A stretch of 64,000 bases of DNA from an archaeon (lineage in GTDB: Archaea > Nanobdellota > Nanobdellia > Pacearchaeales > GW2011-AR1). Positions 1-12,986 of the stretch are shown here, one piece after another. A model generated the notes under the pieces. It saw only the letters and a program-made list of their open reading frames with translations. It was not told the origin of the DNA and searched no databases. The stretch lies in contig JAUWIJ010000005.1 of the NCBI GenBank assembly GCA_030605415.1, positions 2,375 to 66,374 on the forward strand. Direction: 5' to 3'. The translations under genes and the position numbers were made by a program. How positions within the stretch are numbered: the first letter of the stretch is position 1; every line of letters starts with the position of its first letter.

Positions 1-744
1 ACTGACTGGCAACCAGACAATCCAAGAACCGAGAATTGGAATCATTGATACAATGCATGCGATGAATGTTAAAGTTAGGGCGTTAGAAACTCCCAGAAAA
101 AATAGACACGCTCCGACCGCCAGACCTTGAACAATTCCAATGAAAACTTGTCCGAAAACTATTGCATTAGTTATTCCCCTGAATTCTTTAAGAATTTTTG
201 CTTCCGTAGCATCGGAAAACGGGGATAGTGTTGAAATATATTCCCGAAGTTCATTGGCGTCTCGTGTTGCAAAGTAAAATGTAAAAAAGAAAACTGCAAA
301 TTGAAGAAGTAATGACGGAAAATTTTTGACTAATATTTTGAATTGATCTAAAGATGTTGAGAAAAGTTTGCCTATAATATTATCAAGATTTATTGCTAAA
401 GTCGATGATATGTTGCTCTGAACAAAATTATTTATGTATTCTCCAAAATTGAAGTTTTGAAGCAGAACATATATTTCAAAGAGCTGGTTGACTAAAATTG
501 GAACCATATAAATTATTGGAATTGCGATTAGTATTATTAATCCGAAAAGAAGTATGAGAGCTGATAGGGTTTTTCTTTTGACTCGTGTTAGAATTTTTTT
601 ATAAACTGGATTAAAAATATAGGCAAAAAGAAGTCCGAATATTATCGGTATAATTATTTCTTTTAAAATAAAAAATGTCAGAACAAAAATACCGAGGATT
701 ATTGCACCGGCTATACCTCTCTTTATATCTTTATAATCTGCCAT
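1..744 (-). CDS. AI-2E family transporter (PerM/UPF0118-like permease), partial; C-terminus runs off the window
   Basis: Not in the ORF track because it is open at the window edge. My reverse-strand translation from ATG at 744 reads MADYKDIKRGIAGAIILGIFVLTFFILKEIIIPIIFGLLFAYIFNPVY... with no stop down to position 1. Multi-TM pattern and a MIPILGSW-type motif fit the family. Confidence 0.6.
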   Translation of the reverse strand, partial: MADYKDIKRGIAGAIILGIFVLTFFILKEIIIPIIFGLLFAYIFNPVYKKILTRVKRKTLSALILLFGLIILIAIPIIYMVPILVNQLFEIYVLLQNFNFGEYINNFVQSNISSTLAINLDNIIGKLFSTSLDQFKILVKNFPSLLLQFAVFFFTFYFATRDANELREYISTLSPFSDATEAKILKEFRGITNAIVFGQVFIGIVQGLAVGACLFFLGVSNALTLTFIACIVSMIPILGSWIVWLPVS

Positions 745-762
745 AATAATCTATGAATTGAC

Positions 763-854
763 AATTTATAAAGTTTCGGAAAACGGGCAGAAGAATTTAT
801 AAAGAGATTTCAGAGAAGTTTTATGAATAAATTTTCTACGGAAAATTTATAAAG
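763..854 (+). promoter_or_regulatory. three spaced TATA-box-like AATTTATAAAG motifs upstream of 872..1576
   Basis: AATTTATAAAG occurs at 763, 794 and 844. The same TTTATAAA(G) motif sits about 25-30 nt upstream of several other starts in this window. Confidence 0.4.
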
Positions 855-871
855 AGATTTTATGTTTTTGT

Positions 872-1576
872 GTGATGATTATGAAGAAGATTTTTGGTGG
901 TATTTTTGATAACGAGGTGCATGTGGCATTTTTGCGATTTGGTCGAGGGCAATATAAAAATAAATATTTGCTACATGGAAAAAGGCAGGCAAAGAATTGG
1001 GCAGTTAAAACGGGAGCGGAATATACAAATTTTTTGGTGAGAAGTTGTCTGGGAAAAATTGATGGATATGTTGCGATTAGGGGAGTTATTGTTTCGACTT
1101 TGGATTTGAAAAATGAGATTGAATTTGAAATTAAAAAAGTTAGTAATTTTCAGGGTGTTCGAAAATATATTATTGATATTGAAGTTGAGCCCTCGAAAAT
1201 TTTAGATTTGATGAATAAATATCCGAAGGGTTTTTTTGCTTTAAGTTTTAAGGGAGAGGGTTTTGTTTTGAAGATTAAAGCAAAGGCACCGAAAAATGGG
1301 AAGCCGGGAAAGGATGACAAGAAGCCGGTTGCTGATTTTTGTTCTCTGAAAACTGAGGATAGGGCAATTATTGATGAGTTGTTTTTCGGAGTTGGAGATT
1401 TTCAAGAGATTTCTATTAGCCATGAGATTGATGTAACCGATATTATTTATCCTGCAGATATAGAAAATTTGAAGCCGATTGAGATTAGAGAATTGGCGAA
1501 GAGAAAGGGTGTTATTAAAAGAGATATTGATGTGGACGGAATTATAAAAATGCGTGAAGTTGAATTTGTGGCGTAG
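872..1576 (+). CDS. hypothetical protein (start more likely ATG 875 or 881)
   Basis: Long ORF with a TATA-like motif about 30 nt upstream. I recognise no family. Confidence 0.5.
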   Translation: MMIMKKIFGGIFDNEVHVAFLRFGRGQYKNKYLLHGKRQAKNWAVKTGAEYTNFLVRSCLGKIDGYVAIRGVIVSTLDLKNEIEFEIKKVSNFQGVRKYIIDIEVEPSKILDLMNKYPKGFFALSFKGEGFVLKIKAKAPKNGKPGKDDKKPVADFCSLKTEDRAIIDELFFGVGDFQEISISHEIDVTDIIYPADIENLKPIEIRELAKRKGVIKRDIDVDGIIKMREVEFVA

Positions 1577-1610
1577 TAAGATTTAAATATAAGAAATTGT
1601 TTTAGATATC

Positions 1611-1982
1611 ATGAGGATTGATTGGGTTGCTGTTGTTGGAATTTTTGTTGCTTTGCTTTTGCTTGGTGGTATCCTTTGGGGAATTCCTAATTATAAGGTT
1701 TATGCTCGTGAGTTAAACGGGAAGGCACAATTGAGAGAGGCGGAATGGAATAGGCAGATTGCGGTTCAGGAAGCGGAGGCATTGAAGGAGTCGGCAAAAT
1801 TAAAAGCGGATGCTGAAGTTATTCGAGCGAAGGGAATTGCTGAGGCGAATGAAATTATTTCTGAAAGTTTAACTGAAAGATATATTCAATATAAGTTTGT
1901 CGAGGGGTTGAATGACGGAAATACCGAGGTGATATATGTACCGACTGAAGCGAATTTGCCAATTTTGGAAGCTAGGGGTTGA
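1611..1982 (+). CDS. N-terminally membrane-anchored SPFH/band-7 (prohibitin-like) short protein
   Basis: N-terminal TM helix followed by an Ala/Glu-rich coiled segment (AEALKESAKLKADAEVIRAKGIAEANEII) typical of SPFH C-terminal regions. Confidence 0.45.
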   Translation: MRIDWVAVVGIFVALLLLGGILWGIPNYKVYARELNGKAQLREAEWNRQIAVQEAEALKESAKLKADAEVIRAKGIAEANEIISESLTERYIQYKFVEGLNDGNTEVIYVPTEANLPILEARG

Positions 1983-2219
1983 TTAATCAAACCAGCCCAA
2001 CTTATCCCACTTATCCAATTTTTTAATTTGATATTCGGCTTTTTGTGCGTCAGATCTACTGGAACATTTTTTGGTTCGTAAAAGTTTTCTGAATTTTTTC
2101 TGGCGGACATATTTACTACCTTTGCCTTCGGCGTGAATTTTCATTCGTTTGTCGAGGTCGTTGGTAACGCCAGTATAAAAAGAACCATCTTGGCATTCGA
2201 GAATATAAACGAACCACAG
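1983..2219 (-). CDS. GIY-YIG nuclease domain protein (UPF0213/YhbQ-like); no canonical start at the domain boundary
   Basis: WFVYILECQDGSFYTGVTNDLDKRMKIHAEGKGSKYV matches the GIY-YIG core. The in-frame sequence upstream of 2219 is heptamer repeat, not protein-like. Confidence 0.65.
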   Translation of the reverse strand: MWFVYILECQDGSFYTGVTNDLDKRMKIHAEGKGSKYVRQKKFRKLLRTKKCSSRSDAQKAEYQIKKLDKWDKLGWFD

Positions 2220-2224
2220 TGCCT

Positions 2225-2410
2225 GGCACTGAGGTATTTGGTATTTGGGATTTGGGATTTGCAAGCGAGGGACACGAGCGAGGTATTTGGGATTTGGGAT
2301 TTGGGATTCGTGGGAGAGGGGAAGGGGAAACTGGTATTTGGGATTTGGGATTTGTGGGGACAGGGAACGGGGAAGCGAGGGACGAGACGAGGGATTTGGG
2401 ATTTGTGGAA
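2225..2410. repeat. mosaic repeat built from GGTATTT/GGGATTT heptamer arrays
   Basis: Runs of GGTATTT-GGGATTT-GGGATTT are separated by GAGGGACACGAGCGAGG-type linkers. Related copies lie at 54300-54480 and 60020-60095. Confidence 0.85.
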
Positions 2411-2476
2411 TGCTATGTGGTTTGTCAGTGCCGATTAGTCCAAGAAATGATTTTGGTTGCTTGGTTTTTATTTCCA

Positions 2477-3127
2477 TTATATATTGAGGTTTTTTTGTTT
2501 TGCACAGGATGAACAAATGAGGGCGGTATCTTTTAAGGACATATAATATCTGTTGCCTTGTTCAAGAATGTTGTTGAATTTCTCCCAGCCTTTTTCGATT
2601 GTTAGTTTGCCTGAAATAACTCTTTCTGGAACTTTTGATGCTTTTTCTAATAAATCGATTCGTTTCTTGAACATTTTGTAGTGATAGAGATTTGGCTTCG
2701 CGGATTTTGATATTTTTTTATTACAGCTGTAACAGTTTGTTTGTGTCATTAAAAGTTCCTGTTCGCGAATTGCCCACTGAAGTTGAAAGTCTGCGTCTTG
2801 TATTAGATGTTTGTAGTTTCCGATGCCACCGAGTCGATTAAATGTTAAAGTGATTGTTTCTTCTGCGGTATTTATATTGGAAATGATAATTTCGCCGATT
2901 TTTCGGGAGTATCTCCAGATTGGGTATTTCTTTTCTTTTCGCGGAGTTATGGTGAGTTTGCCTATCCGATAAGCTTTCGCACCTGCTTTGATTTTTCCAA
3001 TCATTAAATCTTTTTTTCTTCGAATAGCCCACTCTTTTTTTTCGGCAGACTTTTTCGCGATAGTTTTGTCTTTTTTAGAAATGTAACCTTTTTCGCCCGG
3101 GAGAATGTTCGGAGTTTTTATTGTCAT
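2477..3127 (-). CDS. hypothetical protein with CxxC...CxxC zinc-ribbon-like motifs
   Basis: 216-aa ORF containing CYSCNKK and CSSCAKQ pairs. No family recognised. Confidence 0.5.
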   Translation of the reverse strand: MTIKTPNILPGEKGYISKKDKTIAKKSAEKKEWAIRRKKDLMIGKIKAGAKAYRIGKLTITPRKEKKYPIWRYSRKIGEIIISNINTAEETITLTFNRLGGIGNYKHLIQDADFQLQWAIREQELLMTQTNCYSCNKKISKSAKPNLYHYKMFKKRIDLLEKASKVPERVISGKLTIEKGWEKFNNILEQGNRYYMSLKDTALICSSCAKQKNLNI

Positions 3128-3311
3128 AAAGGAAAAAGGGAAAGGAGGTTTTTAAGAGTTGTTGGTGGGGTAATTCGCTATAAATCGGAAATTAAAAATG
3201 TTTTATGAGCACAATAATTTATTTAAAGTCAAAATAGAAGTTAAATTTTTTCAACCTATTTATAAATCAGCTAAATAATCCTCTTTCTTAAATAATTAAA
3301 AATTGCAATAT

Positions 3312-3326
3312 AAAGTTTTATAAAGG
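3312..3326 (+). promoter_or_regulatory. TATA-box-like AAAGTTTTATAAAGG, candidate promoter of the L3 operon
   Basis: Motif and the following 20 nt resemble 54549-54585, which lies upstream of L21e. Confidence 0.4.
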
Positions 3327-3465
3327 CATTTTTCTGGTTATTTTTAAGGTTCCATCCAAAACTTAAATGTTTGGATGAAGAGAATTTTGTGATTGGTTGG
3401 TCACGATAAAACGCAAGTGCTATTGCTTAATTATCAGATAGTTAGAGCTATCAGGACATACAAGA

Positions 3466-4467
3466 ATGACAGATAACAATGGAATACGAAGTGGAAGTTT
3501 GCAGTTTTACCCGAGGGTGCGAGCTAAGAAAGTTGTGCCTAGTGTGAATTGGAAACCGGTTTCCAAAGACGGTGTTGGGCTTATGGGTTTTGTTGGGTAT
3601 AAGGTTGGGATGATTTCTGTTTGGGCAAAAGACGGGACTGAGCATTCTATGACAAAAGGTAAAAGGATTTCTATTCCGGCGACTGTTGTTGAGTGTCCTG
3701 TTATGAAAATTTATTCGGTTCGATTCTATAAAAATGGGAAAGTGAGTAAAGACGTTGTTGTTTCTAATGATAAAGATTTGAAAAAGAGTGTTAAACTTTC
3801 TAAGTCGGTTGGTGAATTTAAGGATGTCGTCGCACCCAAGGGTGTACCTCCTGCCCAGATGGCATCTGCTGACGCAGACAAGGTCGGCAATTTTGACGAC
3901 GTTAGGGTGATTATGTATTCTGGCGTGAGAAAAACTTGTGTTGACAAAAACAAGGCAGATATGATTGAGGTTGGGGTTTCGGGTTCTAACGACGAGAAAC
4001 TGGCTTTTATTAAAGAGAATATTGGAAAGGAAATTTTGGTTGGTGATGTTTTTAGTGAAGGGCTCGTTGATGTTCGGGGTGTTACAAAAGGTTATGGAAC
4101 ACAGGGTCCTATGAAAAGATTTGGCATTGCATTGAAATCGCATAAGTCTGAAAAGGGAAGGCGAAGACCTGGCTCTTTGGCACCGTGGCATCCGTCGAGA
4201 GTTACTTTCCGAGCACCTCAGGCTGGGCAAACTGGTTATCATAATAGAATTAGTTATAATAATTTGATTTTAGAAATTGGTAAAATTAAAGAAAAGGATA
4301 TTAACAAGAAAGGTGGGTTTGAACATTATGGGGTTATTAAGACTGATTATATAATTTTGAAGGGTTCGATTCCGGGACCGAAGAAAAGAGGACTTATGGT
4401 TACTACTGCTATTAGACCAACTAAATATCTTGCTAAGAAAAAATTTGAGGTAATTGAGTTACGATGA
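3466..4467 (+). CDS. rpl3: 50S ribosomal protein L3 (uL3), with an in-frame repeat insertion
   Basis: GYKVGM, TKGYGTQGPMKRFG and HKSEKGRRRPGSLAPWHPSRV motifs; first gene of an L3-L4-L23-L2 order. Confidence 0.95.
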   Translation: MTDNNGIRSGSLQFYPRVRAKKVVPSVNWKPVSKDGVGLMGFVGYKVGMISVWAKDGTEHSMTKGKRISIPATVVECPVMKIYSVRFYKNGKVSKDVVVSNDKDLKKSVKLSKSVGEFKDVVAPKGVPPAQMASADADKVGNFDDVRVIMYSGVRKTCVDKNKADMIEVGVSGSNDEKLAFIKENIGKEILVGDVFSEGLVDVRGVTKGYGTQGPMKRFGIALKSHKSEKGRRRPGSLAPWHPSRVTFRAPQAGQTGYHNRISYNNLILEIGKIKEKDINKKGGFEHYGVIKTDYIILKGSIPGPKKRGLMVTTAIRPTKYLAKKKFEVIELR

Positions 4468-4742
4468 AAACAAGAACACAAAACGATAACTCTTTATGTG
4501 GACAAAACTTGCAGTGTTTAAATTATAATAAAGAAGGTTGTTTGATGTATCATACTGGTGTTTGTGATGGTATTATTACATGGGATAATAATCAGCAAGT
4601 TTATTTTGCTGGAGGTGAAAAAAATGGGAGATGTTATTCTTCTGACATTTTAGTGGTGAGAGTATTGGGATTTAAAAGAGCAAGAAAACAAACTAAACTT
4701 CTTGAAAATATTGCAGATAAATTGGGGGCTGACTTTTTATAA
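4464..4742 (+). CDS. orphan small Cys-rich protein inserted between L3 and L4
   Basis: ATGA overlap with the L3 stop and TAATG overlap with the L4 start. Flanked by a direct repeat of ATGAAAACAA (4464 and 4742). No family recognised. Confidence 0.55.
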   Translation: MKTRTQNDNSLCGQNLQCLNYNKEGCLMYHTGVCDGIITWDNNQQVYFAGGEKNGRCYSSDILVVRVLGFKRARKQTKLLENIADKLGADFL

Positions 4743-5572
4743 TGAAAACAAAACTATTTGACAAAAACGGGAAAGCGAAAGGTGATGTAGCTTTGCCTAA
4801 GAATTTTTCGGTTAAGATTCGGGAAGATATTTTGGCTAAGGTGTTTGAAGCGCAGAAAGGTCTTTATGCTCAGGTCTATGGTGCGATGGAAGGTGCTGGT
4901 GCCCAGTATTCTGCTTCTGGTATTTCAAAGAAAAAACGGCATGATTGGAAGGCAACCTATGGTAAGGGAATTTCCAGAATTCCGAGAAAAATTATGTCGA
5001 GGCATGGTGCTTCGTTTAATTGGATTGGTGCAACCGTTGCAAGTACTCGAGGTGGACGAAGACCACATGCTCCAAGAAGTGCGAAGAATTTAATTAAGAA
5101 AATTAATAAGAAAGAACTTTTGATTGCTTTTGATTCTGCTTTAGCTGGAACGGTTGATGTGAAATCTTTGGAGAAAAAATATGGGGGGAAGGTAAATAGT
5201 GGTTTTGTTTTTGGCGCTGATATTTTAGAGATTAAAACAAAAGATTTTATTGCGGCTATGAAGAAAGTTTTTGGTGACGCTTTTGGTACTATTTTGAAAC
5301 ATAAGTCAATTCGGGCTGGTATCGGGAAGATGAGAGGTAGAAAATATAAGTCGAACGCTGGACTATTATTCGTTATCGGGAATGATGAGGGTATGAAAAG
5401 AAAAGGTGTAGAAGTTGTTCGGGTTGTTGATTTAACGATTAAGGATTTGTCGCCGAACGGAGAACCAGGGCGATTAGTTTGTTATAGTGAGAAGGCAATT
5501 AAAGATATTGAGGAAAGGTTTGGCAAAGCCAAATCATTTGCAAATGCAAACATTTCCAAGAGGTTTAAATAA
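4742..5572 (+). CDS. rpl4: 50S ribosomal protein L4 (uL4)
   Basis: KATYGKGISRIPR and GGRRPHAPR motifs plus operon position. Confidence 0.93.
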   Translation: MKTKLFDKNGKAKGDVALPKNFSVKIREDILAKVFEAQKGLYAQVYGAMEGAGAQYSASGISKKKRHDWKATYGKGISRIPRKIMSRHGASFNWIGATVASTRGGRRPHAPRSAKNLIKKINKKELLIAFDSALAGTVDVKSLEKKYGGKVNSGFVFGADILEIKTKDFIAAMKKVFGDAFGTILKHKSIRAGIGKMRGRKYKSNAGLLFVIGNDEGMKRKGVEVVRVVDLTIKDLSPNGEPGRLVCYSEKAIKDIEERFGKAKSFANANISKRFK

Positions 5573-5573
5573 A

Positions 5574-5963
5574 ATGTGGTGGAAAAAGAAGATTGTTGAA
5601 AGGAAGTTTGGGGACTTTAGGAAAGGAATAGAATATATGGATTATCTTGAAAGTATGGAAATATATCGCCGTAATGTAGTTAATATAAATAGTGATATAA
5701 AGACAAGAGTTCCTGTTAATTTAGAAGATCCAAAGGATATAGCTCAGGAACAAGAATGTATGGATGATTTTAAAAAAAGAGTTTTATTATTTGAAGATTG
5801 TTTTCAAAGTGCGTATAAAAAAGCACGAGATATAGAAGATGGATATGGATATGAATATAATAATAGAGGGAAATATGGATATAGGGGATTTGCTTGTGGA
5901 GCTGAAAGAGTATTAAAGGTTTTTGATGAAATTAAACAGGATACTTTGGAGAAACTTAAATAA
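5574..5963 (+). CDS. orphan protein inserted between L4 and L23
   Basis: ATG lies 1 nt after the L4 stop (internal Met of ORF-track 5487..5963). Flanked by a 12-nt direct repeat TTAAATAAAATG (5565 and 5956). Confidence 0.5.
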   Translation: MWWKKKIVERKFGDFRKGIEYMDYLESMEIYRRNVVNINSDIKTRVPVNLEDPKDIAQEQECMDDFKKRVLLFEDCFQSAYKKARDIEDGYGYEYNNRGKYGYRGFACGAERVLKVFDEIKQDTLEKLK

Positions 5964-5964
5964 A

Positions 5965-6222
5965 ATGGTAAAAACAATAATTTTAGAGAAGATTAAATCT
6001 ACGGAAAAACTTGTTCGGCAGATTGAGTCGGATAATATTTTGGCTTTTATAGTTGATAGAGCGATTAGCAAGAAGGAAGTTAGAGATGAAGTTGAGAATT
6101 TATTTGATGTTAAAGTTGCAAAAGTTCGAACACACACTTTGAAAAATAAGAAGATTGCTTATGTTAAATTAAAGGCGGATTATCCAGCGGTGGATGTTGC
6201 GACCAAGTTGGGGATGATGTAA
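5965..6222 (+). CDS. rpl23: 50S ribosomal protein L23 (uL23)
   Basis: MVKTIILEKIKSTEK...FIVDRAISKKEVRDEVENLFDVKVAKVRT is a typical L23. Start taken at the internal Met of ORF-track 5923..6222. Confidence 0.92.
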   Translation: MVKTIILEKIKSTEKLVRQIESDNILAFIVDRAISKKEVRDEVENLFDVKVAKVRTHTLKNKKIAYVKLKADYPAVDVATKLGMM

Positions 6223-6356
6223 ATGAAATCAAAGATTTCATTTACGGTGTTCGGAGTTCGGGTTGTCGGTGTTACCCTCACAAATATAAAGGAAAATCAG
6301 GTTGGGGCAGGCCCTCGGGGCTTGGGCAACTGTTGTTATGGGAGGTTATTGTTAAA
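6223..6356 (+). repeat. mosaic intercistronic element, copy E1 (hairpin + heptamers + core + tail)
   Basis: ATGAAATCAAAGATTTCAT hairpin directly after the L23 TAA; GGTGTTC-type words; core TACCCTCACAAATATAAAGGAAAATCAGGTTGGGGCAG at 6273-6310; GGGGCTTGGGCAACT tail; GGGAGG before the L2 ATG. Confidence 0.9.
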
Positions 6357-7055
6357 ATGGGAAAGAGAATAATTCAACAGCGACGCGGAAGGGGTGGACA
6401 TACTTATAAGACCAGAGAGAAAGCTGGGAAAATTAGGCCAGGTTATGCTTCTGGTTTGAAGGGTGAATTTGAGTGTGTGAAACTGATTGCGTCGGTTGGG
6501 CATTCTGTTCCAATTGCAAAGTTCATGAATAAGGGCGGTGAGATCTTCCATAATTTTTCGGTTGATTTATTATATGTTGGGCAGAAAATTGGCATTAATG
6601 GAAATAAGCCGGGTGATATTGCGAAGCTTGGGGATTTGAAGAATGGGACTGAGGTTTTTAATATTGAGTATAATCCTAAGGATGGAGGAAAGTTTGTCAG
6701 AACTGGTGGGAATTTTGGGACAATTATGGCGAAAGAGGGAGATGTTGTTAAGATTATGATGCCGTCGAAAAAGGTGAAGAAATTTAACGTGAATTGCAGG
6801 GCGACTGTTGGTCGGGCTGCGGGAGATGGTAGAATGGATAAGCCGATTTTGAAGGCGGGTAAGAAGTTTTATATAATGAAAACAAAATCTAAATTATGGC
6901 CGAGAACTTCTGCTGTTAAGATGAATGCTATTGACCATCCGTTTGGTAGTGGTCGGGGGAAAAGAATGAAAAGTAAAATTGCTAAGAGAAATGCGTCGCC
7001 GGGTAAGAAGGTTGGTTTAATTAGACCGAGAAGAACAGGGAGGAAGAAAAGATGA
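6357..7055 (+). CDS. rpl2: 50S ribosomal protein L2 (uL2)
   Basis: MGKRIIQQRRGRGG start, DHPFGSGRGK motif, operon position. Confidence 0.95.
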   Translation: MGKRIIQQRRGRGGHTYKTREKAGKIRPGYASGLKGEFECVKLIASVGHSVPIAKFMNKGGEIFHNFSVDLLYVGQKIGINGNKPGDIAKLGDLKNGTEVFNIEYNPKDGGKFVRTGGNFGTIMAKEGDVVKIMMPSKKVKKFNVNCRATVGRAAGDGRMDKPILKAGKKFYIMKTKSKLWPRTSAVKMNAIDHPFGSGRGKRMKSKIAKRNASPGKKVGLIRPRRTGRKKR

Positions 7056-7154
7056 AATCTTCGATTGCATCTTTTCGGGTGGTCGGTGGTTCGGACGCTT
7101 CGCTGGTCGGTGTTCGGGGCTTGAGCAACTTGACATGGAGGGGGATGAAATAAA
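7052..7154 (+). repeat. mosaic intercistronic element, copy E2 (core-less)
   Basis: ATGAAATC overlaps the L2 TGA; degenerate hairpin; GGTCGGTGGTTCGGACGCTTCGCTGGTCGGTGTTCGGGGCTTGAGCAACT; GGAGGGGG before the next ATG. Confidence 0.9.
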
Positions 7155-7466
7155 ATGGCAATTTTAATGGATGGCATGGAAAGAGAAAGGGCATGTGTTT
7201 CTTATTTGGAATCTCTTGGGGTACTTGATAGTGAAAGTTTATGTCTTGCTGGGCATAAATATATACTTCGTGTAGATGATGAAGATTCTTTTTATCAAAT
7301 AGCAGAAGCTACTGGAGTTGATAGAATTATAAATTATGATGGTGATGGTTTGGATTTTGAGATACAAATTCCATCAAAACCGCGTAACGATACATGGTTT
7401 GTGTTTTTGAGTTATTGCAAAAGTGACGCTTTTTTAAATAAATATAATATAGGGGGAACACAATAA
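7155..7466 (+). CDS. orphan protein inserted between L2 and S19
   Basis: 103-aa ORF preceded by element E2 and followed 2 nt later by the S19 ATG. No family recognised. Confidence 0.5.
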   Translation: MAILMDGMERERACVSYLESLGVLDSESLCLAGHKYILRVDDEDSFYQIAEATGVDRIINYDGDGLDFEIQIPSKPRNDTWFVFLSYCKSDAFLNKYNIGGTQ

Positions 7467-7468
7467 TA

Positions 7469-7867
7469 ATGGTAGAAACAATACAAAAGAGAGATAAAAG
7501 CAAATTTTATCGGGGGAAGAAAACTGAAGAATTAAAATCGGTTGATACCCGGGAGTTTGCGAAGTTGGTTAAGGCTCGAGAGAGAAGAACGATTTTGAGA
7601 AACTATGATGTTATCGAGGCTTTTGTTGCGAAGTGTGAGAAAAACACTCTGAAAAATAAACCAATAAAAACCCATGATAGAAGTTTGGTTATTGTTCCAA
7701 AAATGGTCGGTAAAACTATTGGGGTTCATAATGGAAAGGAGTTTAGTAAGGTTGTCATTGTTGAAGAAATGTTGGGACATAGATTGGGTGAATTTTCTAT
7801 GACGAGAAAAATTGCAAAACATACATCCGTTGGAGGCGGAGCTAAAAAGAAGGTGGTAGATAAATAA
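7469..7867 (+). CDS. rps19: 30S ribosomal protein S19 (uS19)
   Basis: GKTIGVHNGKEF and GHRLGEFSMTRK motifs. Confidence 0.95.
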   Translation: MVETIQKRDKSKFYRGKKTEELKSVDTREFAKLVKARERRTILRNYDVIEAFVAKCEKNTLKNKPIKTHDRSLVIVPKMVGKTIGVHNGKEFSKVVIVEEMLGHRLGEFSMTRKIAKHTSVGGGAKKKVVDK

Positions 7868-7868
7868 A

Positions 7869-8501
7869 ATGGCAGCACCGAGTGTACCCTTGAAGGGCAA
7901 AGAAATAAAAGAAACTGCACCCAAGGGTGTACCTCCTGCCCGGATGGCATCCGATAAATCGGACAAGGTCGGCAAAGAAAAATCAAAAGTAGACGAGACT
8001 CCAAAAATGAAAACAGATGTTGAAAAAGTGGAAAATATTAAAGCCGAGAAAGGCAAGAAAAAAAAGATTGTTAAACAAAAGGAGATTTCTAAAAAGGATG
8101 TTGCGGTTGCTAATGGTTTTTCGTTGAAGATTTCGCCTAAGCAATCTAAATATATTATGAGAATTATTCGAGGCAAGAGTCCTGACAATGCCGTTGTAAG
8201 ATTGCAGGATGTTATTAGCGAGAAAAGAGTTGTTCCTATGGCTGGTTTGGAAGTTGGACATAAGAAAGGAAAAGGACTTGCTGGTGGTAAATTTCCGAAA
8301 AATGCGTGTAAGGCGATTATTGAGATTGTGAAGCAGGTTAAAGCTAATTCCATTATTGCTGGAATTGAGAATTCTGTGATTAGTATTGCCAGATCTGATA
8401 GGGCTTCGGCCCCGTATAGAAAGGCCGGGCGAAAAGCCAAGAGGACTCATATTCATATTGAGATTCGAGATAGAACTAAATCGATTGGGAAAGCAAAATA
8501 A
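7869..8501 (+). CDS. rpl22: 50S ribosomal protein L22 (uL22) with a long Lys-rich N-terminal extension
   Basis: C-terminal two thirds (ISPKQSKYIMRIIRGKS...HIHIEI) is L22. The N-terminus contains the 59-nt repeat shared with L3. Confidence 0.9.
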   Translation: MAAPSVPLKGKEIKETAPKGVPPARMASDKSDKVGKEKSKVDETPKMKTDVEKVENIKAEKGKKKKIVKQKEISKKDVAVANGFSLKISPKQSKYIMRIIRGKSPDNAVVRLQDVISEKRVVPMAGLEVGHKKGKGLAGGKFPKNACKAIIEIVKQVKANSIIAGIENSVISIARSDRASAPYRKAGRKAKRTHIHIEIRDRTKSIGKAK

Positions 8502-9193
8502 TGGAAGAAAAGAAATTTGTTGGAGTAAGAAAGGACGAGTATAATATTAAACAGTTTGTAAAGCGAATGTTTGGCAAGGGAAAGGTTTCAAAAGTTCGGA
8601 TTGAGTATACTCCCGTCGGAGAGAGAATTGTTGTTTCGACGCATAAGCCGGGTTGGATAATTGGTAAGCGAGGTGAGAAGATTAATGAGCTGACTGAAAT
8701 TTTAAAGAAACGATTTAAGATGGAGAATCCCCACGTTGATATTGAGGAGATTATGCATCCTGAGTTTGATGCGCAGTTGGTTGCCGACGATATTGCTTTG
8801 ACTCTTGAGAGATTCGGTGCGATGAAATATAAAGCGGCAAGTTATAGAGCTCTTGGAAAAATTAAAAATTCTGGTGCATTGGGTGCTGAGCTGAGGTTAT
8901 CAGGTAAATTGCCAAGTGATAGGGCGAGGGTTTGGAGATTTCATTTTGGTTATTTGAAGAAAACTGGGGACGCTGCGAAAGTTGTAGATAGGGCTGAGTC
9001 TATTGCTCAGACGAAACAAGGTATTGTTGGAATTAAAGTTGCGATTTTGGCTCCGGGTATTAAGATGTGTGACCAAATTACTATTGATGAAGATTTTATG
9101 AATAAAGTTAGGAGTAATGCTGCTTTTGAAATTGTTGAAGAGGTTAAAGTTAAAAAGAAACGGAAGGTGGTGAGGAAAAATAATGGTAAATAA
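8501..9193 (+). CDS. rps3: 30S ribosomal protein S3 (uS3)
   Basis: KH-domain pattern GWIIGKRGEKINELTEILKKRF and operon position. Confidence 0.93.
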   Translation: MEEKKFVGVRKDEYNIKQFVKRMFGKGKVSKVRIEYTPVGERIVVSTHKPGWIIGKRGEKINELTEILKKRFKMENPHVDIEEIMHPEFDAQLVADDIALTLERFGAMKYKAASYRALGKIKNSGALGAELRLSGKLPSDRARVWRFHFGYLKKTGDAAKVVDRAESIAQTKQGIVGIKVAILAPGIKMCDQITIDEDFMNKVRSNAAFEIVEEVKVKKKRKVVRKNNGK

Positions 9194-9431
9194 AAAAATT
9201 ATGACAGCGAAGGAAATGAAGAGAAAAATTATTGATTTGAAGATTGAGTTATTGAAAAATGTAACGAAAAGAAAAAGCATTAAAAAGGAAATTGCGCGGT
9301 TATTAACTATGGCAAGAAGCTCTGCTTCTCGGGGTGTCGGTGTTCGGGGTGTCGGGGTGTCGGATGCTGAAACAACTGGGAACAAGAAGGGAAAGAAAAG
9401 TAATACTAAATCGGATGGAGGGAGCAAGTAA
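9183..9431 (+). CDS. rpl29: 50S ribosomal protein L29 (uL29) with a repeat-derived C-terminal extension
   Basis: The KEMKRKIIDLKIELLK...IKKEIARLLT core is L29. The tail SSASRGVGVRGVGVSDA is encoded by GGTGTTC/GGGTGTC words. Confidence 0.85.
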   Translation: MVNKKIMTAKEMKRKIIDLKIELLKNVTKRKSIKKEIARLLTMARSSASRGVGVRGVGVSDAETTGNKKGKKSNTKSDGGSK

Positions 9432-9732
9432 AGTGGAAATTTGTCCGAAGTGTGGATTGCCTATGCCGGCGTGTGTTTGTGGCGAGATTGCCAAGACGCA
9501 ACAGCAAATTACTGTGAAAACGGAGACAAGGCGTTTCGGAAAAGTTAATACTATAATAAGTGGATTCGACGACGGTGTTAATATTAAAGACCTCGCAAAA
9601 AAGCTCAAAATGAAAAGGGCTTGTGGCGGAACGGTTAAAAATAAAATTATCGAATTGCAAGGAAATCACAAGAGCTTCATAAAACCTATTTTGGTTTCAG
9701 AAGGTTTTAGCGAGGACCAAATAAATGATTAA
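9415..9732 (+). CDS. translation initiation factor SUI1/aIF1
   Basis: N-terminal zinc knuckle CPKCGLPMPACVCG followed by the SUI1 fold pattern ITVKTETRRFGKVNTIISGF...LAKKLKMKRACGGTV. Start could also be GTG 9433. Confidence 0.85.
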   Translation: MEGASKVEICPKCGLPMPACVCGEIAKTQQQITVKTETRRFGKVNTIISGFDDGVNIKDLAKKLKMKRACGGTVKNKIIELQGNHKSFIKPILVSEGFSEDQIND

Positions 9733-10090
9733 AATGGTAAAGAAAAAAATTGATAAGAAAATTGAGAAGATTGAAGATGTCGAATGTAAGGATAGACTTT
9801 GTCCTAAGCATGGAGATAGAAAATTGAAGATGCGAGGTCGGACTTTTGAGGGTGTTGTGATTAGAAAGCGAAATACTCGGGTTACAATTCAGTTTGAGAG
9901 AATGTTGAAACTGCCGAAGTATGAGAGATATGAAAAAAGGAAAACGAAGATTCACGCGAGACTGCCTGACTGTATGAAAAATGATGTTGCGATTGGAGAC
10001 TTGATTCAGATTACAGAAACTCGACCAATTAGCAAGATGATTCACTTTGTTGTTGTTAAAGTTGTTAAAAAAGTGGAGGCTAAAATATGA
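9725..10090 (+). CDS. rps17: 30S ribosomal protein S17 (uS17)
   Basis: CPKHG, RGRTFEGVVI and GDLIQITETRPISK motifs. Confidence 0.92.
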   Translation: MIKMVKKKIDKKIEKIEDVECKDRLCPKHGDRKLKMRGRTFEGVVIRKRNTRVTIQFERMLKLPKYERYEKRKTKIHARLPDCMKNDVAIGDLIQITETRPISKMIHFVVVKVVKKVEAKI

Positions 10091-10217
10091 AATCAAAGAT
10101 TTCATATTTGCGGTGGTCGGTGGTCGGACGCTACCCTCACAGATATAAAGGAGAAACAGGTTGGGGCACACTGTTCGCTGGTCGGGGTTCGGGGCTTGAG
10201 CAACTGGAGGTACTGAA
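10087..10217 (+). repeat. mosaic intercistronic element, copy E3 (core-bearing)
   Basis: ATGAAATCAAAGATTTCAT overlaps the S17 TGA. The 42-nt core (10132-10173) interrupts GGACGC^TTCGCTGG. GGGGCTTGAGCAACT tail, then GGAGGT. Confidence 0.9.
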
Positions 10218-10577
10218 ATGAAAGGTAGAATAGAAACACAAAAGGCATTTAATAAAGAATCTTTAATTAATAACAAATGGTACAGGATAAATATTGGCTG
10301 TATTTATACAGAAGCAATGTGGGCTAATAACCTCCCTTTTGAAAAAGAGTGCTTTATTAGATTAAACACTGCAGATTATCAAAAAGGAATGGAAGGAAGG
10401 GATATAGAATGTTGGAATGGAGAGATAATTGGATTTTCAAGGGAAGGGAGTGTTCTAATTAATCCCAAAGAATATGGATTAGAATTTATTTACCCAAGAG
10501 ACCCACAATATAATTCTTTACTAGAACAAATGACAAAAACAAAGGAATTTAGAAAATTATTGGAGGTAAAGAAATGA
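10218..10577 (+). CDS. orphan protein inserted between S17 and L14
   Basis: 119-aa ORF with an ATGA overlap at the L14 start. Flanked by a 16-nt imperfect direct repeat, GGAGGTACTGAAATGA at 10206 and GGAGGTAAAGAAATGA at 10562. Confidence 0.5.
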   Translation: MKGRIETQKAFNKESLINNKWYRINIGCIYTEAMWANNLPFEKECFIRLNTADYQKGMEGRDIECWNGEIIGFSREGSVLINPKEYGLEFIYPRDPQYNSLLEQMTKTKEFRKLLEVKK

Positions 10578-10975
10578 GAGCAATAAGTGGAAGAGCGACG
10601 AGGAGTTTGAATATTGGGAGTTTGTTGGAGGCTTGTGATAATAGCGGGGCACGGATTTGTCGGATTGTTTCGATTAAGCATGGGAAAACTTCTAAGGGTC
10701 GGCAGGGTTATGCGAAAATTGCGGACTGGGTTAAGGTTTCAGTTAGAAAGGGCGACCCGAAAATGAAAGGAGAGGTTTTCGACGCTGTTCTTGTCAGGCA
10801 GAGAAAACCATGGAGAAGAAATACTGGAGAGCGAGTCTGTTTCAGCGATAATGCGGTTGCGCTTTTAAAAGACGAAAAAGGGAATCCAAAAGGAACACAG
10901 GTTAAAGGAGTTGTTGCTCGAGAGATTCAGGAAAGATGGAAGGAGGTTGCTAAAATTGCGGGGGGGGTATATTAA
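10574..10975 (+). CDS. rpl14: 50S ribosomal protein L14 (uL14)
   Basis: CDNSGAR and FDAVLVRQRKPWRR motifs. Confidence 0.95.
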   Translation: MRAISGRATRSLNIGSLLEACDNSGARICRIVSIKHGKTSKGRQGYAKIADWVKVSVRKGDPKMKGEVFDAVLVRQRKPWRRNTGERVCFSDNAVALLKDEKGNPKGTQVKGVVAREIQERWKEVAKIAGGVY

Positions 10976-10976
10976 G

Positions 10977-11447
10977 ATGAAATCAAAATTTAGTAAATCG
11001 TGGAATTCGAGTAAGCAACCGAGGAAGCAGGTTAAGTTTAGGGTGAATGCGCCGAATCATATTAAGCGGACATTTATGGGAACCACTTTAGATAAGCCAT
11101 TGAGAGAGAAATATGGGAGACGAAATATTGAAGTTAGAAAGGGCGACGAGGTTAAAGTTATGCGAGGGAAGTTTAAAGGGAAGCAGGGGAAAGTTGGAAG
11201 TGTTGATGTTAAAAGGACAAGGATTCAGATTGAGGGAATTCAGAGAGTTAAAGCTGGTGGGGAAAAGTTGATTACGTGGTTCCATCCGTCAAATGTTAAG
11301 ATAATTATTTTAGACAATGAGGATGCTCGGAGATTGAAACGCGGGAAGAAGGTAGTTGGGGAAACGGTATCCGCTGACGTGGACAAGGTCGACAAAATTA
11401 AGAAGACTGTTAAGAAAACTAAAAAAATAACTAAGGAGAAAAAATAA
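10977..11447 (+). CDS. rpl24: 50S ribosomal protein L24 (uL24)
   Basis: SKQPRKQ and KGDEVKVMRGKFKGKQGKV (KOW) motifs. Start at the internal Met of ORF-track 10911..11447. Confidence 0.92.
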   Translation: MKSKFSKSWNSSKQPRKQVKFRVNAPNHIKRTFMGTTLDKPLREKYGRRNIEVRKGDEVKVMRGKFKGKQGKVGSVDVKRTRIQIEGIQRVKAGGEKLITWFHPSNVKIIILDNEDARRLKRGKKVVGETVSADVDKVDKIKKTVKKTKKITKEKK

Positions 11448-12106
11448 TGGCACATATTAAAAAAACTCAAATGTCCACTTTGTGGCCGGTTCCACGGAAG
11501 GGAAGAGGAAGGAGATTTGTAGCTGTGCCTAGTCATGCGACTTCAAAGGGTATTTCGATTTTGTTTTTACTTAGAGATGTTTTGAAAATTGTAAAGACGA
11601 GGAAGGAGGCTAGGCATATGACATTAAACGGAATGGTTAAGGTTAATAATCAAATCAGGAAGGATGAGAATTTCCCGGTACAGGTTTTCGACACGATTAA
11701 TCTTGAAAAGGCAAAGTTGAATTATAGACTGGAGATTGTTAATAAGAAATTTAGTCTGATTAAAATTTCGGTCAAGGATGCTGAGAATAAGATTGTTAAG
11801 ATTAGCGGGAAAAAGATTCTTGGAGTTAAAAAGATTCAGATGAATCTCGATGATGGGCAGAATATTATTATGAAAGAAAAGTTTTCGGTTGGGGATTCGG
11901 TTGTTTTGAATACTAAGGAAAAGAAAGTTGTGAAAATTTTGCCGTTGAAAGAGGGGGCCGATGTGGAAATTGTCGCAGGGAAGCATGCCGGGAAGAAAGG
12001 CAAGTTGATTGGCTTTGAAAGTTTGGTTCGAGGTAGAAGTTATCAAATTAAATTAAAAGATAGAACTGTGAGTTTGCCTTACAAGACTATTTTGGTGATT
12101 GGATAA
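11447..12106 (+). CDS. rps4e: 30S ribosomal protein S4e (eS4)
   Basis: WPVPRKGRGRRFVAVPSH motif and operon position after L24. Confidence 0.93.
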   Translation: MAHIKKTQMSTLWPVPRKGRGRRFVAVPSHATSKGISILFLLRDVLKIVKTRKEARHMTLNGMVKVNNQIRKDENFPVQVFDTINLEKAKLNYRLEIVNKKFSLIKISVKDAENKIVKISGKKILGVKKIQMNLDDGQNIIMKEKFSVGDSVVLNTKEKKVVKILPLKEGADVEIVAGKHAGKKGKLIGFESLVRGRSYQIKLKDRTVSLPYKTILVIG

Positions 12107-12636
12107 TGGCAAATAAAATGAGAGAAATTAAGTTGGATAAGGTCGTTTTGAATATTGGCGGAGTTGCTGATAAGTTGGATAAGGGAATTATTTTGCTTGA
12201 AACTATTAGCGGAAAGAAGGCGATTAAAGTTAAAGCTACTAAGAGAATTCCGACGTGGAGTGTTCGGCCTGGTTTGGAAGTTGGAACGAAGGTTACGTTA
12301 CGAGGCAAGGATGCTTTGAATATGGTTAAAAAATTGTTGCCGGCAATTGATAATACGTTGAAGGAGAAGCAGATTCAGGATAATTGTTTTTCGTTTGGGA
12401 TACATGAATATATTGAGATTCCGGGTGTTGAGTATATTAGAGAAGTTGGAATTATGGGATTTGAAGTTACGATTGTGTTTTCGAGGGCTGGCAAATCGGT
12501 CGAAAAGAAAAAGGTTAAAAGGGGAAAATCTCGTAGATTAATTGTTACGCGTAAAGAAATTGAAGATTATCTTGTAACTAAATTTAACACAGAAATTTTG
12601 CGGAAACAAAAGAAGATTATGGAGGACGAAGAATAA
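12106..12636 (+). CDS. rpl5: 50S ribosomal protein L5 (uL5)
   Basis: NCFSFGIHEYIEIPG and MGFEVTIV motifs. Confidence 0.93.
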   Translation: MANKMREIKLDKVVLNIGGVADKLDKGIILLETISGKKAIKVKATKRIPTWSVRPGLEVGTKVTLRGKDALNMVKKLLPAIDNTLKEKQIQDNCFSFGIHEYIEIPGVEYIREVGIMGFEVTIVFSRAGKSVEKKKVKRGKSRRLIVTRKEIEDYLVTKFNTEILRKQKKIMEDEE

Positions 12637-12637
12637 A

Positions 12638-12868: not shown

Positions 12869-12986
12869 TATTCGTATTTTCGGTGTTCGGTGTTACCCTC
12901 ACAAATATAAAGGAACATCAGGTTGGGGCAGGCCCTCGGATGGTCGGATGGTCGGGGCTTGAGCAACTAAAGATGGAGGTTTTGGA
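12865..12986 (+). repeat. mosaic intercistronic element, copy E4 (core-bearing, hairpin degenerate)
   Basis: ATGA overlap with the S14 stop; GGTGTTC words; core at 12894-12931; GGGGCTTGAGCAACT; GGAGGT before the S8 ATG. Confidence 0.9.

What the first reader, a model, noticed from the sequence alone, without database searches (positions are those of the whole stretch)
4464..4751. Cassette A is flanked by a 10-nt direct repeat that recreates the L3/L4 junction
ATGAAAACAA occurs at 4464-4473 (start of ORF A, overlapping the L3 TGA) and again at 4742-4751 (start of L4). Deleting 4464-4741 (278 nt) restores ...TTACGATGAAAACAAAAC..., a perfect ATGA-coupled L3/L4 junction. This is the signature of an insertion that duplicated its target, or of junction-homology-mediated capture.
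Basis: seen in the sequence. Interest (0 to 1): 0.7.

Follow-up and report, generated by a model that had tools for sequence, protein, structure and literature searches.

The report
Small gene between ribosomal L3/L4
A 92-codon cysteine-rich gene sits exactly between ribosomal protein genes L3 and L4 of a DPANN archaeon, bracketed by a 10-base repeat of the L4 start. Close relatives have the predicted uninterrupted junction, but the gene belongs to a fast-evolving family found at this same spot across the clade, so the repeat is more likely a by-product of two coupled gene starts than the scar of a mobile insertion.

Summary
ATGAAAACAA occurs at 4464-4473 and at 4742-4751. Removing 278 nt gives GAGTTACGATGAAAACAAAACTATTT, which is exactly the L3/L4 junction of relatives L008 and L061. 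The sister genome L003 differs there by one base and aligns both repeat copies to its single copy.

The insertion-scar reading is only partly supported.
- ORF A belongs to a fast-evolving Cys-rich small-protein family (C...C-x-G...Y...C). Every member examined, about a dozen lineages, lies at the L3|L4 junction.
- The two members whose genomic context was looked up after a context-free profile search also lie at L3|L4.
- The other family members share only 0-5 nt with their L4 start.
- ORF A has no inverted ends, no second copy, no transposase, and no viral or plasmid relatives.
- In this operon 3.9% of all gene-start pairs share an exact run of at least 10 nt across the start codon. L4 and L15 share 13 nt.

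Best reading (confidence about 0.6): ORF A is a resident, translationally coupled junction gene with filled and empty alleles. Relatives lost it cleanly, by deletion between the two coupled starts or by allele replacement. The rival (about 0.25) is a recent gain in this lineage that duplicated the first 10 nt of L4. The direction of the event is not resolved. Interest is moderate to low.

The parts
3466..4467 (+). Ribosomal protein L3 gene (333 aa). Its stop TGA at 4465-4467 overlaps the ORF A start.
   Evidence: Pfam PF00297, E 1.9e-57; ORF list.
4447..4451 (+). GAGGT, a Shine-Dalgarno-like motif inside the L3 3' end (codons F-E-V). It lies 13-17 nt before the ORF A start. In empty-site relatives the same motif precedes L4.
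   Evidence: The sequence is conserved as TTTGAGGT in relatives. A role in initiation is inferred.
4464..4473 (+). Repeat copy 1, ATGAAAACAA: the start of ORF A (M-K-T-R).
4464..4742 (+). ORF A, 92 aa, Cys-rich (C12, C18, C26, C34, C57). A member of a small-protein family found at the L3|L4 junction. GC3 is 19.6%.
   Evidence: No Pfam, PHROG or PDB match.
4467..4481 (+). 15 nt (K-T-R-T-Q) that may be an N-terminal extension relative to other family members. Those begin M-N-D/E a few residues before the first Cys. This is tentative.
   Evidence: 5'-end comparison by eye; not statistically tested.
4724..4728 (+). GGGGG inside the ORF A 3' end, 14-18 nt before the L4 start. It is a possible Shine-Dalgarno-like motif for L4 in the filled allele.
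   Evidence: function inferred.
4742..4751 (+). Repeat copy 2, ATGAAAACAA: the start of L4 (M-K-T-K).
4742..5572 (+). Ribosomal protein L4 gene (276 aa).
   Evidence: Pfam PF00573, E 1.3e-17.
6876..6885 (+). Third copy of ATGAAAACAA, inside L2 (…IMKTKSK…). Not part of the structure; it shows that the 10-mer recurs in this A-rich, Lys-rich genome.

Best explanation
ORF A is a resident gene, not a recent mobile insert. It belongs to a fast-evolving, Cys-rich small-protein family whose members lie between L3 and L4 in a clade of Pacearchaeota/Woesearchaeota-type DPANN archaea.

How it is expressed (inferred). It is translated by termination-reinitiation coupling. Its start overlaps the L3 stop (ATGA) and uses the Shine-Dalgarno-like GAGGT inside L3. 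Its stop overlaps the L4 start (TAATG).

The two alleles (shown). The junction exists in a filled state and an empty state across the clade.

How empty alleles arise (inferred). They arise by exact loss. One route is deletion between the two coupled start regions, which always share at least ATG(A). The other is replacement by an empty allele through homologous recombination in the conserved flanks. Only exact events survive, because L4 is essential.

The repeat. It is mostly forced or compositional. ATGA comes from coupling and AAA from the preferred Lys second codon; the remaining 4 nt are chance or come from a small N-terminal extension. It is not a target-site duplication. It is the longest such microhomology in the family and would be a good substrate for clean loss.
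For: Family and position.
- ORF A against the 93-aa ORF at the same junction in L009: 28% identity over 87 aa, four aligned Cys, E 7e-6.
- ORF A against L068: 40% over 48 aa.
- A 12-sequence alignment shows C34 and G36 conserved in at least 90% of sequences, C57 invariant, and a shared C-terminal helix motif.
- A profile search with no genomic context returned P0003-P0007. The two I looked up, P0005 (24 contigs read) and P0006, are again between L3 and L4.

Vertical signal.
- ORF A's three best family matches (L009, L068, L073) are in the three nearest hosts that carry a member. By my count that happens by chance about 1 time in 120.
- Between L011 and L131, the Cys ORF has dN/dS 0.42 and 73% aa identity, while L4 has 0.12 and 92%. 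The family is a real gene evolving about 5 times faster than L4. By my extrapolation that rate is enough to give about 30-40% identity at the host distances seen.
- L022 and L093 carry a 38-aa remnant with the C-V-G motif, consistent with decay in place.

Not a scar.
- 25 other cassettes at this junction share 0-8 nt with their L4 start; family members share 0-5 nt.
- Family members have different 3' junctions: ATGA, TAATG, or 1-3 nt gaps.
- No terminal inverted repeats, no second copy or paralogue, no phage, plasmid or viral relatives.
- 3.9% of operon gene-start pairs share a run of at least 10 nt.

Flanks. They are native. L003 is the nearest relative in every segment on both sides.

Coupling. 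ATGA and overlap by 1 nt are the common coupled overlaps in archaea and bacteria (PMC6728339, PMC10666635).
Against: - Local parsimony favours a gain. The nearest lineages on both flanks (L003, L061, then L007/L074 and L004/L005/L067) are all empty. An ancestral gene would need about 13 losses on the L3+L4 tree.
- The window lineage has gained other inserts that L003 and the outgroups lack: ORF C and the repeat module between L23 and L2.
- Cassette B shows that cassettes do move laterally.
- A 10-nt shared prefix after the ATG is rare: 0.1-0.4% of pairs.
- Cassette starts collectively resemble the start of the next gene more than random pairs do (Fisher p about 0.02, computed by hand from the fractions).
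- ORF A and all family members are AT-rich at third positions compared with their hosts. This could mean foreign origin. Fast evolution under AT-biased mutation explains it equally well.
- The overall correlation between host similarity and Cys-protein similarity is weak (rho 0.21, p 0.13).
Confidence: 0.6

Rival explanations
1. Recent gain in the window lineage. A family member from a related genome, or another promoterless ORF, was joined into an empty ATGA L3/L4 junction. The mechanism would be microhomology or one-sided homology: illegitimate recombination facilitated by homology, or template switching. The left joint fell just after nt 10 of the recipient's L4 and the right side was anchored in L4. 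The first 10 nt of L4 are therefore present twice. The left copy became the ORF A start, and the ORF is now expressed by coupling to L3.
For: - The empty site in relatives equals the prediction, and both repeat copies map to one copy in L003.
- The nearest relatives are all empty.
- ORF A may carry an N-terminal extension (MKTRTQ) in front of the family-typical N-D…C-G start, as expected for a fusion behind the first codons of L4 (tentative).
- A shared prefix of at least 10 nt occurs in only 0.1-0.4% of gene-start pairs.
- Cassette starts collectively resemble the start of the next gene (p about 0.02).
- The window lineage gained ORF C and a repeat module.
- Cassette B is 100% identical to L003 over 330 nt amid flanks of about 85%, so cassettes can spread laterally.
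- Identity to L003 is slightly lower next to the cassette: 84% in the last 83 nt of L3 plus the first 300 nt of L4, against about 88-89% elsewhere.
Against: - No donor was found. The closest homologue is 28-40% identical.
- Strict site fidelity of the family and agreement with host relatedness mean that any donor would be a close relative that itself inherited the gene. Losses in L003 and L061 are then needed anyway.
- Other family members show no repeat.
- L003 remains the nearest relative in both flanks.
- The in-frame joint and the exact TAATG end would require luck or strong selection.
Confidence: 0.25
2. Classical mobile element or integron-like cassette. The 268-nt insert would be a non-autonomous transposon or a site-specific recombination cassette, and the 10 nt would be its target-site duplication or attachment core.
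For: - A direct repeat flanks the insert, with a single copy at the empty site.
- Several junctions of the same operon carry orphan, AT-rich small ORFs.
Against: - No terminal inverted repeats and no attC-like palindrome at the ends.
- Single copy in 64 kb.
- No transposase or integrase was seen among the neighbouring ORFs that were scanned.
- Inserts at the same site in relatives have unrelated ends and repeats of 0-8 nt.
- No viral, phage or plasmid homologues.
Confidence: 0.03
3. ORF A is not a gene. The 278 nt would be a non-coding spacer or a decaying remnant, and the open frame and repeat would be accidents of an A-rich sequence.
For: - No database family and an orphan at HMMER level.
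- Low-confidence structure model, pLDDT 50.
- Low GC3.
Against: - The frame is open for 92 codons, exactly from the L3 stop to the L4 start, with coupling overlaps at both ends.
- Cys and Gly positions are conserved across a family at the same site.
- dN/dS is 0.42 in a close pair of the family.
- One member is identical in at least 24 contigs from many samples.
Confidence: 0.04

Closest known systems
Deletions and indels between short direct repeats (replication slippage or microhomology-mediated deletion). The classic case is the E. coli lacI deletions of Albertini et al. 1982; cited from my own knowledge, not checked here.
   Same: The filled allele has two copies of a short repeat flanking the segment. 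The empty allele has one copy and an otherwise seamless junction.
   Different: The direction of the event is not established here. The repeat coincides with two translation starts, so much of it is functionally forced. Selection on an essential downstream gene (L4) would filter for exact events whatever the mechanism.
Target-site duplication by IS elements or MITEs
   Same: A 10-nt direct repeat flanks a short insert, with a single copy at the empty site.
   Different: There are no terminal inverted repeats, no transposase, a single copy, and no constant duplication length at other inserts at this site.
Translational coupling by termination-reinitiation at ATGA and TAATG overlaps (Huber et al. 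2019, PMC6728339; PMC10666635)
   Same: L3/ORF A overlap by 4 nt (ATGA). ORF A/L4 overlap by 1 nt (TAATG). Shine-Dalgarno-like motifs lie in the 3' end of each upstream gene.
   Different: Coupling was not measured here. What is unusual is that a non-ribosomal orphan is spliced into a coupled pair of ribosomal protein genes while coupling geometry is preserved on both sides.
Illegitimate recombination facilitated by homology on one side (de Vries & Wackernagel 2002; Prudhomme et al. 2002; cited from my own knowledge)
   Same: It would produce exactly this structure: one homologous anchor (L4), one microhomology joint, and a duplicated short segment.
   Different: No donor and no anchor-side mosaic could be shown. 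The mechanism is known from naturally transformable bacteria, not from DPANN archaea.
Integron gene cassettes, and free-standing homing-endonuclease genes lodged between conserved genes (cited from my own knowledge)
   Same: Promoterless small ORFs of one orientation are lodged between conserved genes, vary in presence, and are expressed from upstream signals.
   Different: There is no attC, no integrase and no nuclease domain. The ORF A family is fixed to one position rather than shuffled among positions.

Membership tests
Transposable-element insertion with target-site duplication (IS/MITE) | Direct repeat flanking the insert, with a single copy at the empty site | tested here: met
   L003 5001-5010 aligns to both 4464-4473 and 4742-4751.
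Transposable-element insertion with target-site duplication (IS/MITE) | Terminal inverted repeats at the insert ends | tested here: not met
   no inverted repeat pairs the two ends of 4474-4741. The best pairs are internal and AT-rich, 75-82% complementary.
Transposable-element insertion with target-site duplication (IS/MITE) | Transposase, or several copies of the element in the genome | tested here: not met
   single copy in 64 kb; orphan. The rest of the genome was not available.
Transposable-element insertion with target-site duplication (IS/MITE) | Duplication of constant length at other insertions of the same family | tested here: not met
   family members in relatives share 0-5 nt with their L4 start; all other cassettes share 0-8 nt.
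Integron-type gene cassette | attC-like imperfect palindrome at the 3' end of the cassette | tested here: not met
Integron-type gene cassette | Adjacent tyrosine-recombinase integrase with attI | tested here: inconclusive
   None was seen among the ORFs scanned near the operon. Not every ORF of the window was scanned.
Indel between short direct repeats (slippage or microhomology deletion) | Two repeat copies in the long allele, one in the short allele, and a seamless junction | tested here: met
Indel between short direct repeats (slippage or microhomology deletion) | The long (filled) allele is ancestral | tested here: inconclusive
   For: site fidelity, agreement with host relatedness, dN/dS. 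Against: the nearest relatives are all empty.
Indel between short direct repeats (slippage or microhomology deletion) | Repeat longer than expected from local sequence constraints | tested here: inconclusive
   0.1-0.4% by the shared-prefix measure, but 3.9% by an exact run across the start codon.
Translationally coupled overlapping gene pairs (termination-reinitiation) | Stop/start overlap of 4 nt (ATGA) or 1 nt (TAATG), same strand | tested here: met
   ATGA at 4464-4467; TAATG at 4740-4744.
Translationally coupled overlapping gene pairs (termination-reinitiation) | Shine-Dalgarno-like motif within the 3' end of the upstream gene | tested here: met
   GAGGT at 4447-4451 and GGGGG at 4724-4728. 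The spacing resembles other genes of the operon.
Translationally coupled overlapping gene pairs (termination-reinitiation) | Translation of the downstream gene depends on translation of the upstream gene | not testable with these tools
   Needs reporter fusions or ribosome profiling.
Cys-rich small-protein family at the L3|L4 junction (uncharacterised; one member is named 'hypothetical protein IH845_00080' in NCBI) | Encoded between L3 and L4, on the same strand, coupled | tested here: met
Cys-rich small-protein family at the L3|L4 junction (uncharacterised; one member is named 'hypothetical protein IH845_00080' in NCBI) | Conserved C…C-x-G…Y…C pattern with a C-terminal helix | tested here: met
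   C34 and G36 conserved in at least 90% of sequences, C57 invariant; four Cys aligned with L009.
Cys-rich small-protein family at the L3|L4 junction (uncharacterised; one member is named 'hypothetical protein IH845_00080' in NCBI) | Statistically supported sequence similarity to other members | tested here: met
   Pairwise E 7e-6 against L009. The ORF A fragment P0001 scores E 7e-9 against the family profile, which includes ORF A itself. Not detectable by single-sequence search of 1.8 billion proteins.

The most novel reading that the evidence does not exclude
The L3|L4 and L4|L23 junctions of this DPANN clade might work as recombinase-free landing pads. Promoterless small-ORF cassettes would be captured through microhomology with the start region of the downstream gene, duplicating it. 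They would then be expressed at once by translational coupling to highly expressed ribosomal protein genes, and spread among relatives by recombination in the conserved flanks. The 10-nt repeat around ORF A would be a fresh capture scar. Three observations are compatible with this:
- Cassette starts resemble the start of the next gene more than random pairs do (p about 0.02).
- The cassette B block is 100% identical to L003 over 330 nt.
- About 30% of relatives carry something at each of these two junctions.
Probability: 0.12. Interest if true: 0.75.

Novelty: new member of a known kind. Interest (0 to 1): 0.35.

Why it matters
If the best reading holds, the finding itself is ordinary: a presence/absence polymorphism whose ends fall in a short repeat that is largely dictated by two coupled gene starts.

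Two things go beyond the finding.
- An unannotated, fast-evolving Cys-rich small-protein family is always encoded between L3 and L4 in part of the Pacearchaeota/Woesearchaeota radiation. Given its position and coupling, it is a candidate lineage-specific ribosome-associated protein.
- Two junctions of the most conserved operon in cellular life are variable in this clade, each filled in about 30% of relatives. Every variant preserves the coupling geometry.

This gives a natural system for asking how new small genes gain expression by riding on translational coupling, and how they are removed without damaging essential neighbours.

Tried and rejected
1. Extended duplication. I asked whether the last ~60 nt of ORF A are a diverged copy of the last ~60 nt of L3, prompted by a 14/17 match at 4416-4432 and 4688-4704. 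Shuffle tests on 8 family loci, at DNA and protein level, gave p 0.04-0.98 with no consistent signal. Rejected.
2. Import of ORF A with long flanks from a distant donor. L003 is the nearest relative in every flanking segment. The 188-nt region next to the junction is too conserved to resolve anything; there is only a slight hint that -50..+44 is closer to L061.
3. Strain-level empty site. Every contig on record that encodes the exact L3 or L4 protein also carries ORF A. Reads could not be examined.
4. Function by homology. Pfam, PHROGs and PDB profile searches found nothing. The only distant HMMER hit, P0002, is an fn3-repeat protein and is judged spurious.
5. Structure. The single-sequence AlphaFold2 model has pLDDT 50, so no fold search was run.
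6. Viral or plasmid origin. A viral-contig scan with the family alignment was not possible. The single-protein scan and tblastn against phages and plasmids found nothing.
7. Composition as a sign of foreign origin. ORF A is AT-rich at third positions, but so are all family members in hosts of very different GC3. Fast evolution explains this equally well, so it does not discriminate.
8. Rfam on 1-20000 found nothing.
9. The 12-nt repeat around cassette B (TTAAATAAAATG) is mostly the common start context AAATAAAATG of this operon.
10. Literature. Searches for inserted small ORFs in DPANN or archaeal ribosomal protein operons found no direct precedent.
Full report
SETTING
The window carries the large archaeal ribosomal protein gene cluster: L3, L4, L23, L2, S19, L22, S3, L29, SUI1, S17, L14, L24, S4e and onward to SecY. 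It comes from metagenome contig ENA ERZ4220937 NODE_20 (99.8 kb). An identical 3.3-kb contig exists in SRR12623522. The nearest genomes are MAGs labelled Pacearchaeota, Woesearchaeota or Nanoarchaeota, that is, DPANN archaea.

THE OBSERVATION
ATGAAAACAA is at 4464-4473 and again at 4742-4751, 278 nt apart.
- The first copy is the start of a 92-codon ORF (ORF A). Its ATG overlaps the L3 stop, giving an ATGA overlap.
- The second copy is the L4 start, which overlaps the ORF A stop, giving a TAATG overlap.
- The repeat extends to 15 nt with two mismatches.
- A third copy lies inside L2.

THE EMPTY SITE
I fetched 61 loci from species-representative genomes and 65 from metagenomes, using L4 as the query.
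- In most of them, and in archaea as distant as Nitrososphaeraceae and Bathyarchaeia, L3 and L4 overlap by ATGA.
- L008 and L061 read gagttacgATGAAAACAAAACTATTT. This is identical to the window after removal of 4464-4741. L003, L006 and L024 differ by one or two bases.
- L003 is the sister genome: colinear and 86-92% nucleotide identity over 10 kb. Its single copy at 5001-5010 aligns to both window copies.

WHAT ORF A IS
It has no Pfam, PHROG or PDB relative. At single-sequence level it is an orphan, both in 5.8 billion clustered proteins and in an exhaustive HMMER scan of 1.84 billion representatives.

Position gives it away. In the clade with at least 68% L4 identity, 16 of 51 loci have something between L3 and L4. 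Most of these are small Cys-rich ORFs of 58-94 aa.
- ORF A aligns with the 93-aa ORF of L009 over 87 residues: 28% identity, four Cys aligned, E 7e-6.
- It aligns with L068 at 40% over 48 aa.
- Twelve such sequences align. C34 and G36 are conserved in at least 90% of them and C57 in all. A tyrosine and a C-terminal helix motif (R-x-Q..LLEKIADK) are shared.
- A profile of this alignment, searched without any genomic context, returned five other proteins. The two whose context I looked up lie between L3 and L4 in every contig read, including 24 contigs for P0005.
- For the close pair L011/L131, the Cys ORF has dN/dS 0.42 at 73% aa identity. The adjacent L4 has 0.12 at 92%.
So this is a real gene under relaxed purifying selection, evolving about five times faster than L4. 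By my extrapolation, that rate accounts for 30-40% identity at the host distances involved. L022 and L093 carry a 38-aa remnant with the C-V-G motif. The single-sequence structure model is unreliable (pLDDT 50).

IS THE REPEAT A SCAR?
Mobile-element hallmarks are absent.
- No inverted ends.
- No second copy or paralogue in 64 kb.
- No viral, phage or plasmid relative.

The repeat is not a property of the family.
- The other members share 0-5 nt with their own L4 start.
- The 25 other distinct cassettes at this junction share 0-8 nt with their L4 start.
- Their 3' junctions all differ.

How unusual 10 nt is depends on the null model.
- As a shared prefix it is rare: 0.1% of all gene-start pairs in the window, 0.4% of pairs that both start ATGA.
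- Start regions in this operon are stereotyped: an A/T-rich spacer, ATG, then AAA. An exact run of at least 10 nt containing the start codon occurs in 3.9% of the 465 pairs. L4 shares 13 nt with L15.
- With five orphan cassettes in this operon, one such pair is expected about one time in five.
- Taken together, the five cassette/next-gene pairs are somewhat more alike than random pairs. Combining the fractions by Fisher's method, by hand, gives p about 0.02. This is a hint, not a demonstration.

I also tested whether the duplication extends into the 3' ends of L3 and ORF A. It does not.

DIRECTION OF THE EVENT
For long residence of the gene, with loss in relatives:
- The family keeps strictly to one site.
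- ORF A's three best matches are in the three nearest hosts that carry a member.
- The evolutionary rates are consistent with vertical descent.
- A remnant is decaying in place (L022/L093).
- L003 is the nearest relative in every flanking segment, so no foreign flanks came in with ORF A.

For a gain in the window lineage:
- L003, L061, L007/L074 and L004/L005/L067 are all empty. An ancestral gene needs about 13 losses on the L3+L4 tree.
- The window lineage has gained ORF C and a repeat module that L003 and the outgroups lack.
- Cassette B with its flanks is identical to L003 over 330 nt, where about 35 nt is the longest run expected at 86% identity. Cassettes therefore do move between lineages by recombination.

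Third-position AT-richness does not discriminate. ORF A has GC3 19.6%, against a genome mean of 33.2% (sd 7.2). All family members are AT-rich in hosts whose L3/L4 GC3 ranges from 24% to 48%.

If filled and empty alleles are exchanged by homologous recombination in the conserved flanks, both the patchy distribution and the perfect junctions follow without repeated precise deletions.

MECHANISM I COMMIT TO (confidence about 0.6)
ORF A is a resident gene of the junction, translated by termination-reinitiation coupling from L3. It passes ribosomes on to L4 through the TAATG overlap. A Shine-Dalgarno-like GAGGT lies in L3 and a GGGGG in ORF A. ATGA and overlaps by 1 nt are the common coupled overlaps (PMC6728339, PMC10666635).
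- Shown: the anatomy, the family, the two alleles.
- Inferred: the coupling, the direction of the event, the mode of loss.
The repeat is largely forced: ATGA by coupling and AAA by the preferred second codon. The remaining 4 nt are chance, or the result of a small N-terminal extension (tentative). It is the best microhomology in the family for a clean loss.

The main rival (about 0.25) is a recent gain mediated by microhomology or one-sided homology that duplicated the first 10 nt of L4. A classical transposon or integron cassette is close to excluded (0.03).

COMPARISON WITH KNOWN SYSTEMS
The structure matches indels between short direct repeats, and it matches coupled overlapping gene pairs. 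It fails three of the four defining features of a transposon insertion, and it lacks the attC of integron cassettes. Literature searches found no description of small ORFs inserted in DPANN ribosomal protein operons. The Cys-rich family is annotated only as a hypothetical protein.

VERDICT
The thing is a new member of a known kind. Interest is 0.35. The by-products are more interesting than the repeat itself: the family fixed at the junction, the two variable junctions, and the repeats listed below.

Noticed in passing
window 6223-6332, 7048-7150, 10083-10208, 12871-12988, 14087-14165, 16651-16793; partial copy at 15298-15366 inside the L18 coding sequence: A GC-rich repeat module of about 100-140 nt occurs six times, always on the + strand, always between genes of the ribosomal protein cluster, and nowhere else in the 64 kb. 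It starts with the palindrome ATGAAATCAAAGATTTCAT. It contains TACCCTCACAAATATAAAGGA (TATA-like) and TCGGGGCTTGGGCAACT. It ends in a Shine-Dalgarno-like motif plus the next gene's start. It may be a repeated terminator/promoter/leader unit. There is no Rfam match. The copy between L23 and L2 is absent from the sister genome L003, where the junction is TAATG.
   Followed up: partly
window 3834-3890 (inside L3), 7919-7975 (N-terminus of L22), 11366-11395 (C-terminus of L24): A GC-rich, in-frame block of about 57 nt encoding …PKGVPPAQMASADADKVG… is 88% identical between L3 and L22 and partly present in L24. L3 of L003 and L061 lacks it (314 aa against 333 aa). L3 of L007 and L074 has it. It looks like a small repeat that inserts in frame into ribosomal protein genes, reminiscent of Rickettsia palindromic elements (from my own knowledge).
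   Followed up: partly
window 5512-5841 (L4 3' end plus most of ORF B), L003 5771-6100: This stretch is identical to L003 over 330 nt, with only 4 mismatches across 5512-5987. The flanking L4 sequence is 82-91% identical, and about 35 nt is the longest run expected at that identity. ORF B (129 aa, orphan, between L4 and L23) and a 16-aa C-terminal extension of L4 occur only in the window and L003. This suggests recent lateral exchange of cassette B by recombination.
   Followed up: partly
window 5574-5963, 7155-7466, 10218-10577, 15568-15819: Four further orphan small ORFs (B, C, D, E) are lodged between ribosomal protein genes: L4|L23, L2|S19, S17|L14 and L18|S5. All have GC3 of 17.5-23.5%, in the lowest tenth of the window's genes, and no Pfam or PHROG match. 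ORF C is absent from L003 and from nearly all relatives.
   Followed up: partly
related loci L003-L128, junctions L3|L4 and L4|L23: In the clade with at least 68% L4 identity, L3|L4 is occupied in 16 of 51 loci and L4|L23 in 15 of 52. L23|L2 is occupied in 5 of 47, and the other junctions in 0-3 loci each. Besides the Cys family there are several unrelated ORFs at L3|L4 (for example L013/L077/L078 at 102 aa, L065/L066 at 96 aa, L089 at 109 aa). Most (9 of 12) overlap the L3 stop by ATGA; the others start 1-3 nt after it.
   Followed up: partly
window 2231-2408, next to 1986-2477 (-): Tandem GGGATTTGGGATTTG-type repeats overlap the 5' half of a GIY-YIG domain gene (Pfam E 2.6e-17) upstream of the operon. 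The repeat region differs in length from L003. A GIY-YIG gene in the same position is present in distant relatives (L134, L135).
   Followed up: no
window 4737-4749 and 17134-17146: L4 and L15 share a 13-nt exact run across their start codons (TTATAATGAAAAC). This is longer than the ORF A/L4 repeat and shows how stereotyped start regions are in this operon.
   Followed up: yes
window 17650-18194: Two small overlapping ORFs (85 and 96 aa) lie between L15 and SecY. From memory they look like an antitoxin/toxin pair. Pfam gave only a sub-threshold DUF7515 hit for the first and nothing for the second.
   Followed up: partly
L022 1494-1610 and L093 (same ORF): A 38-aa ORF between L3 and L4 retains a C-V-G…C motif of the Cys-rich family. 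It looks like a truncated remnant.
   Followed up: no
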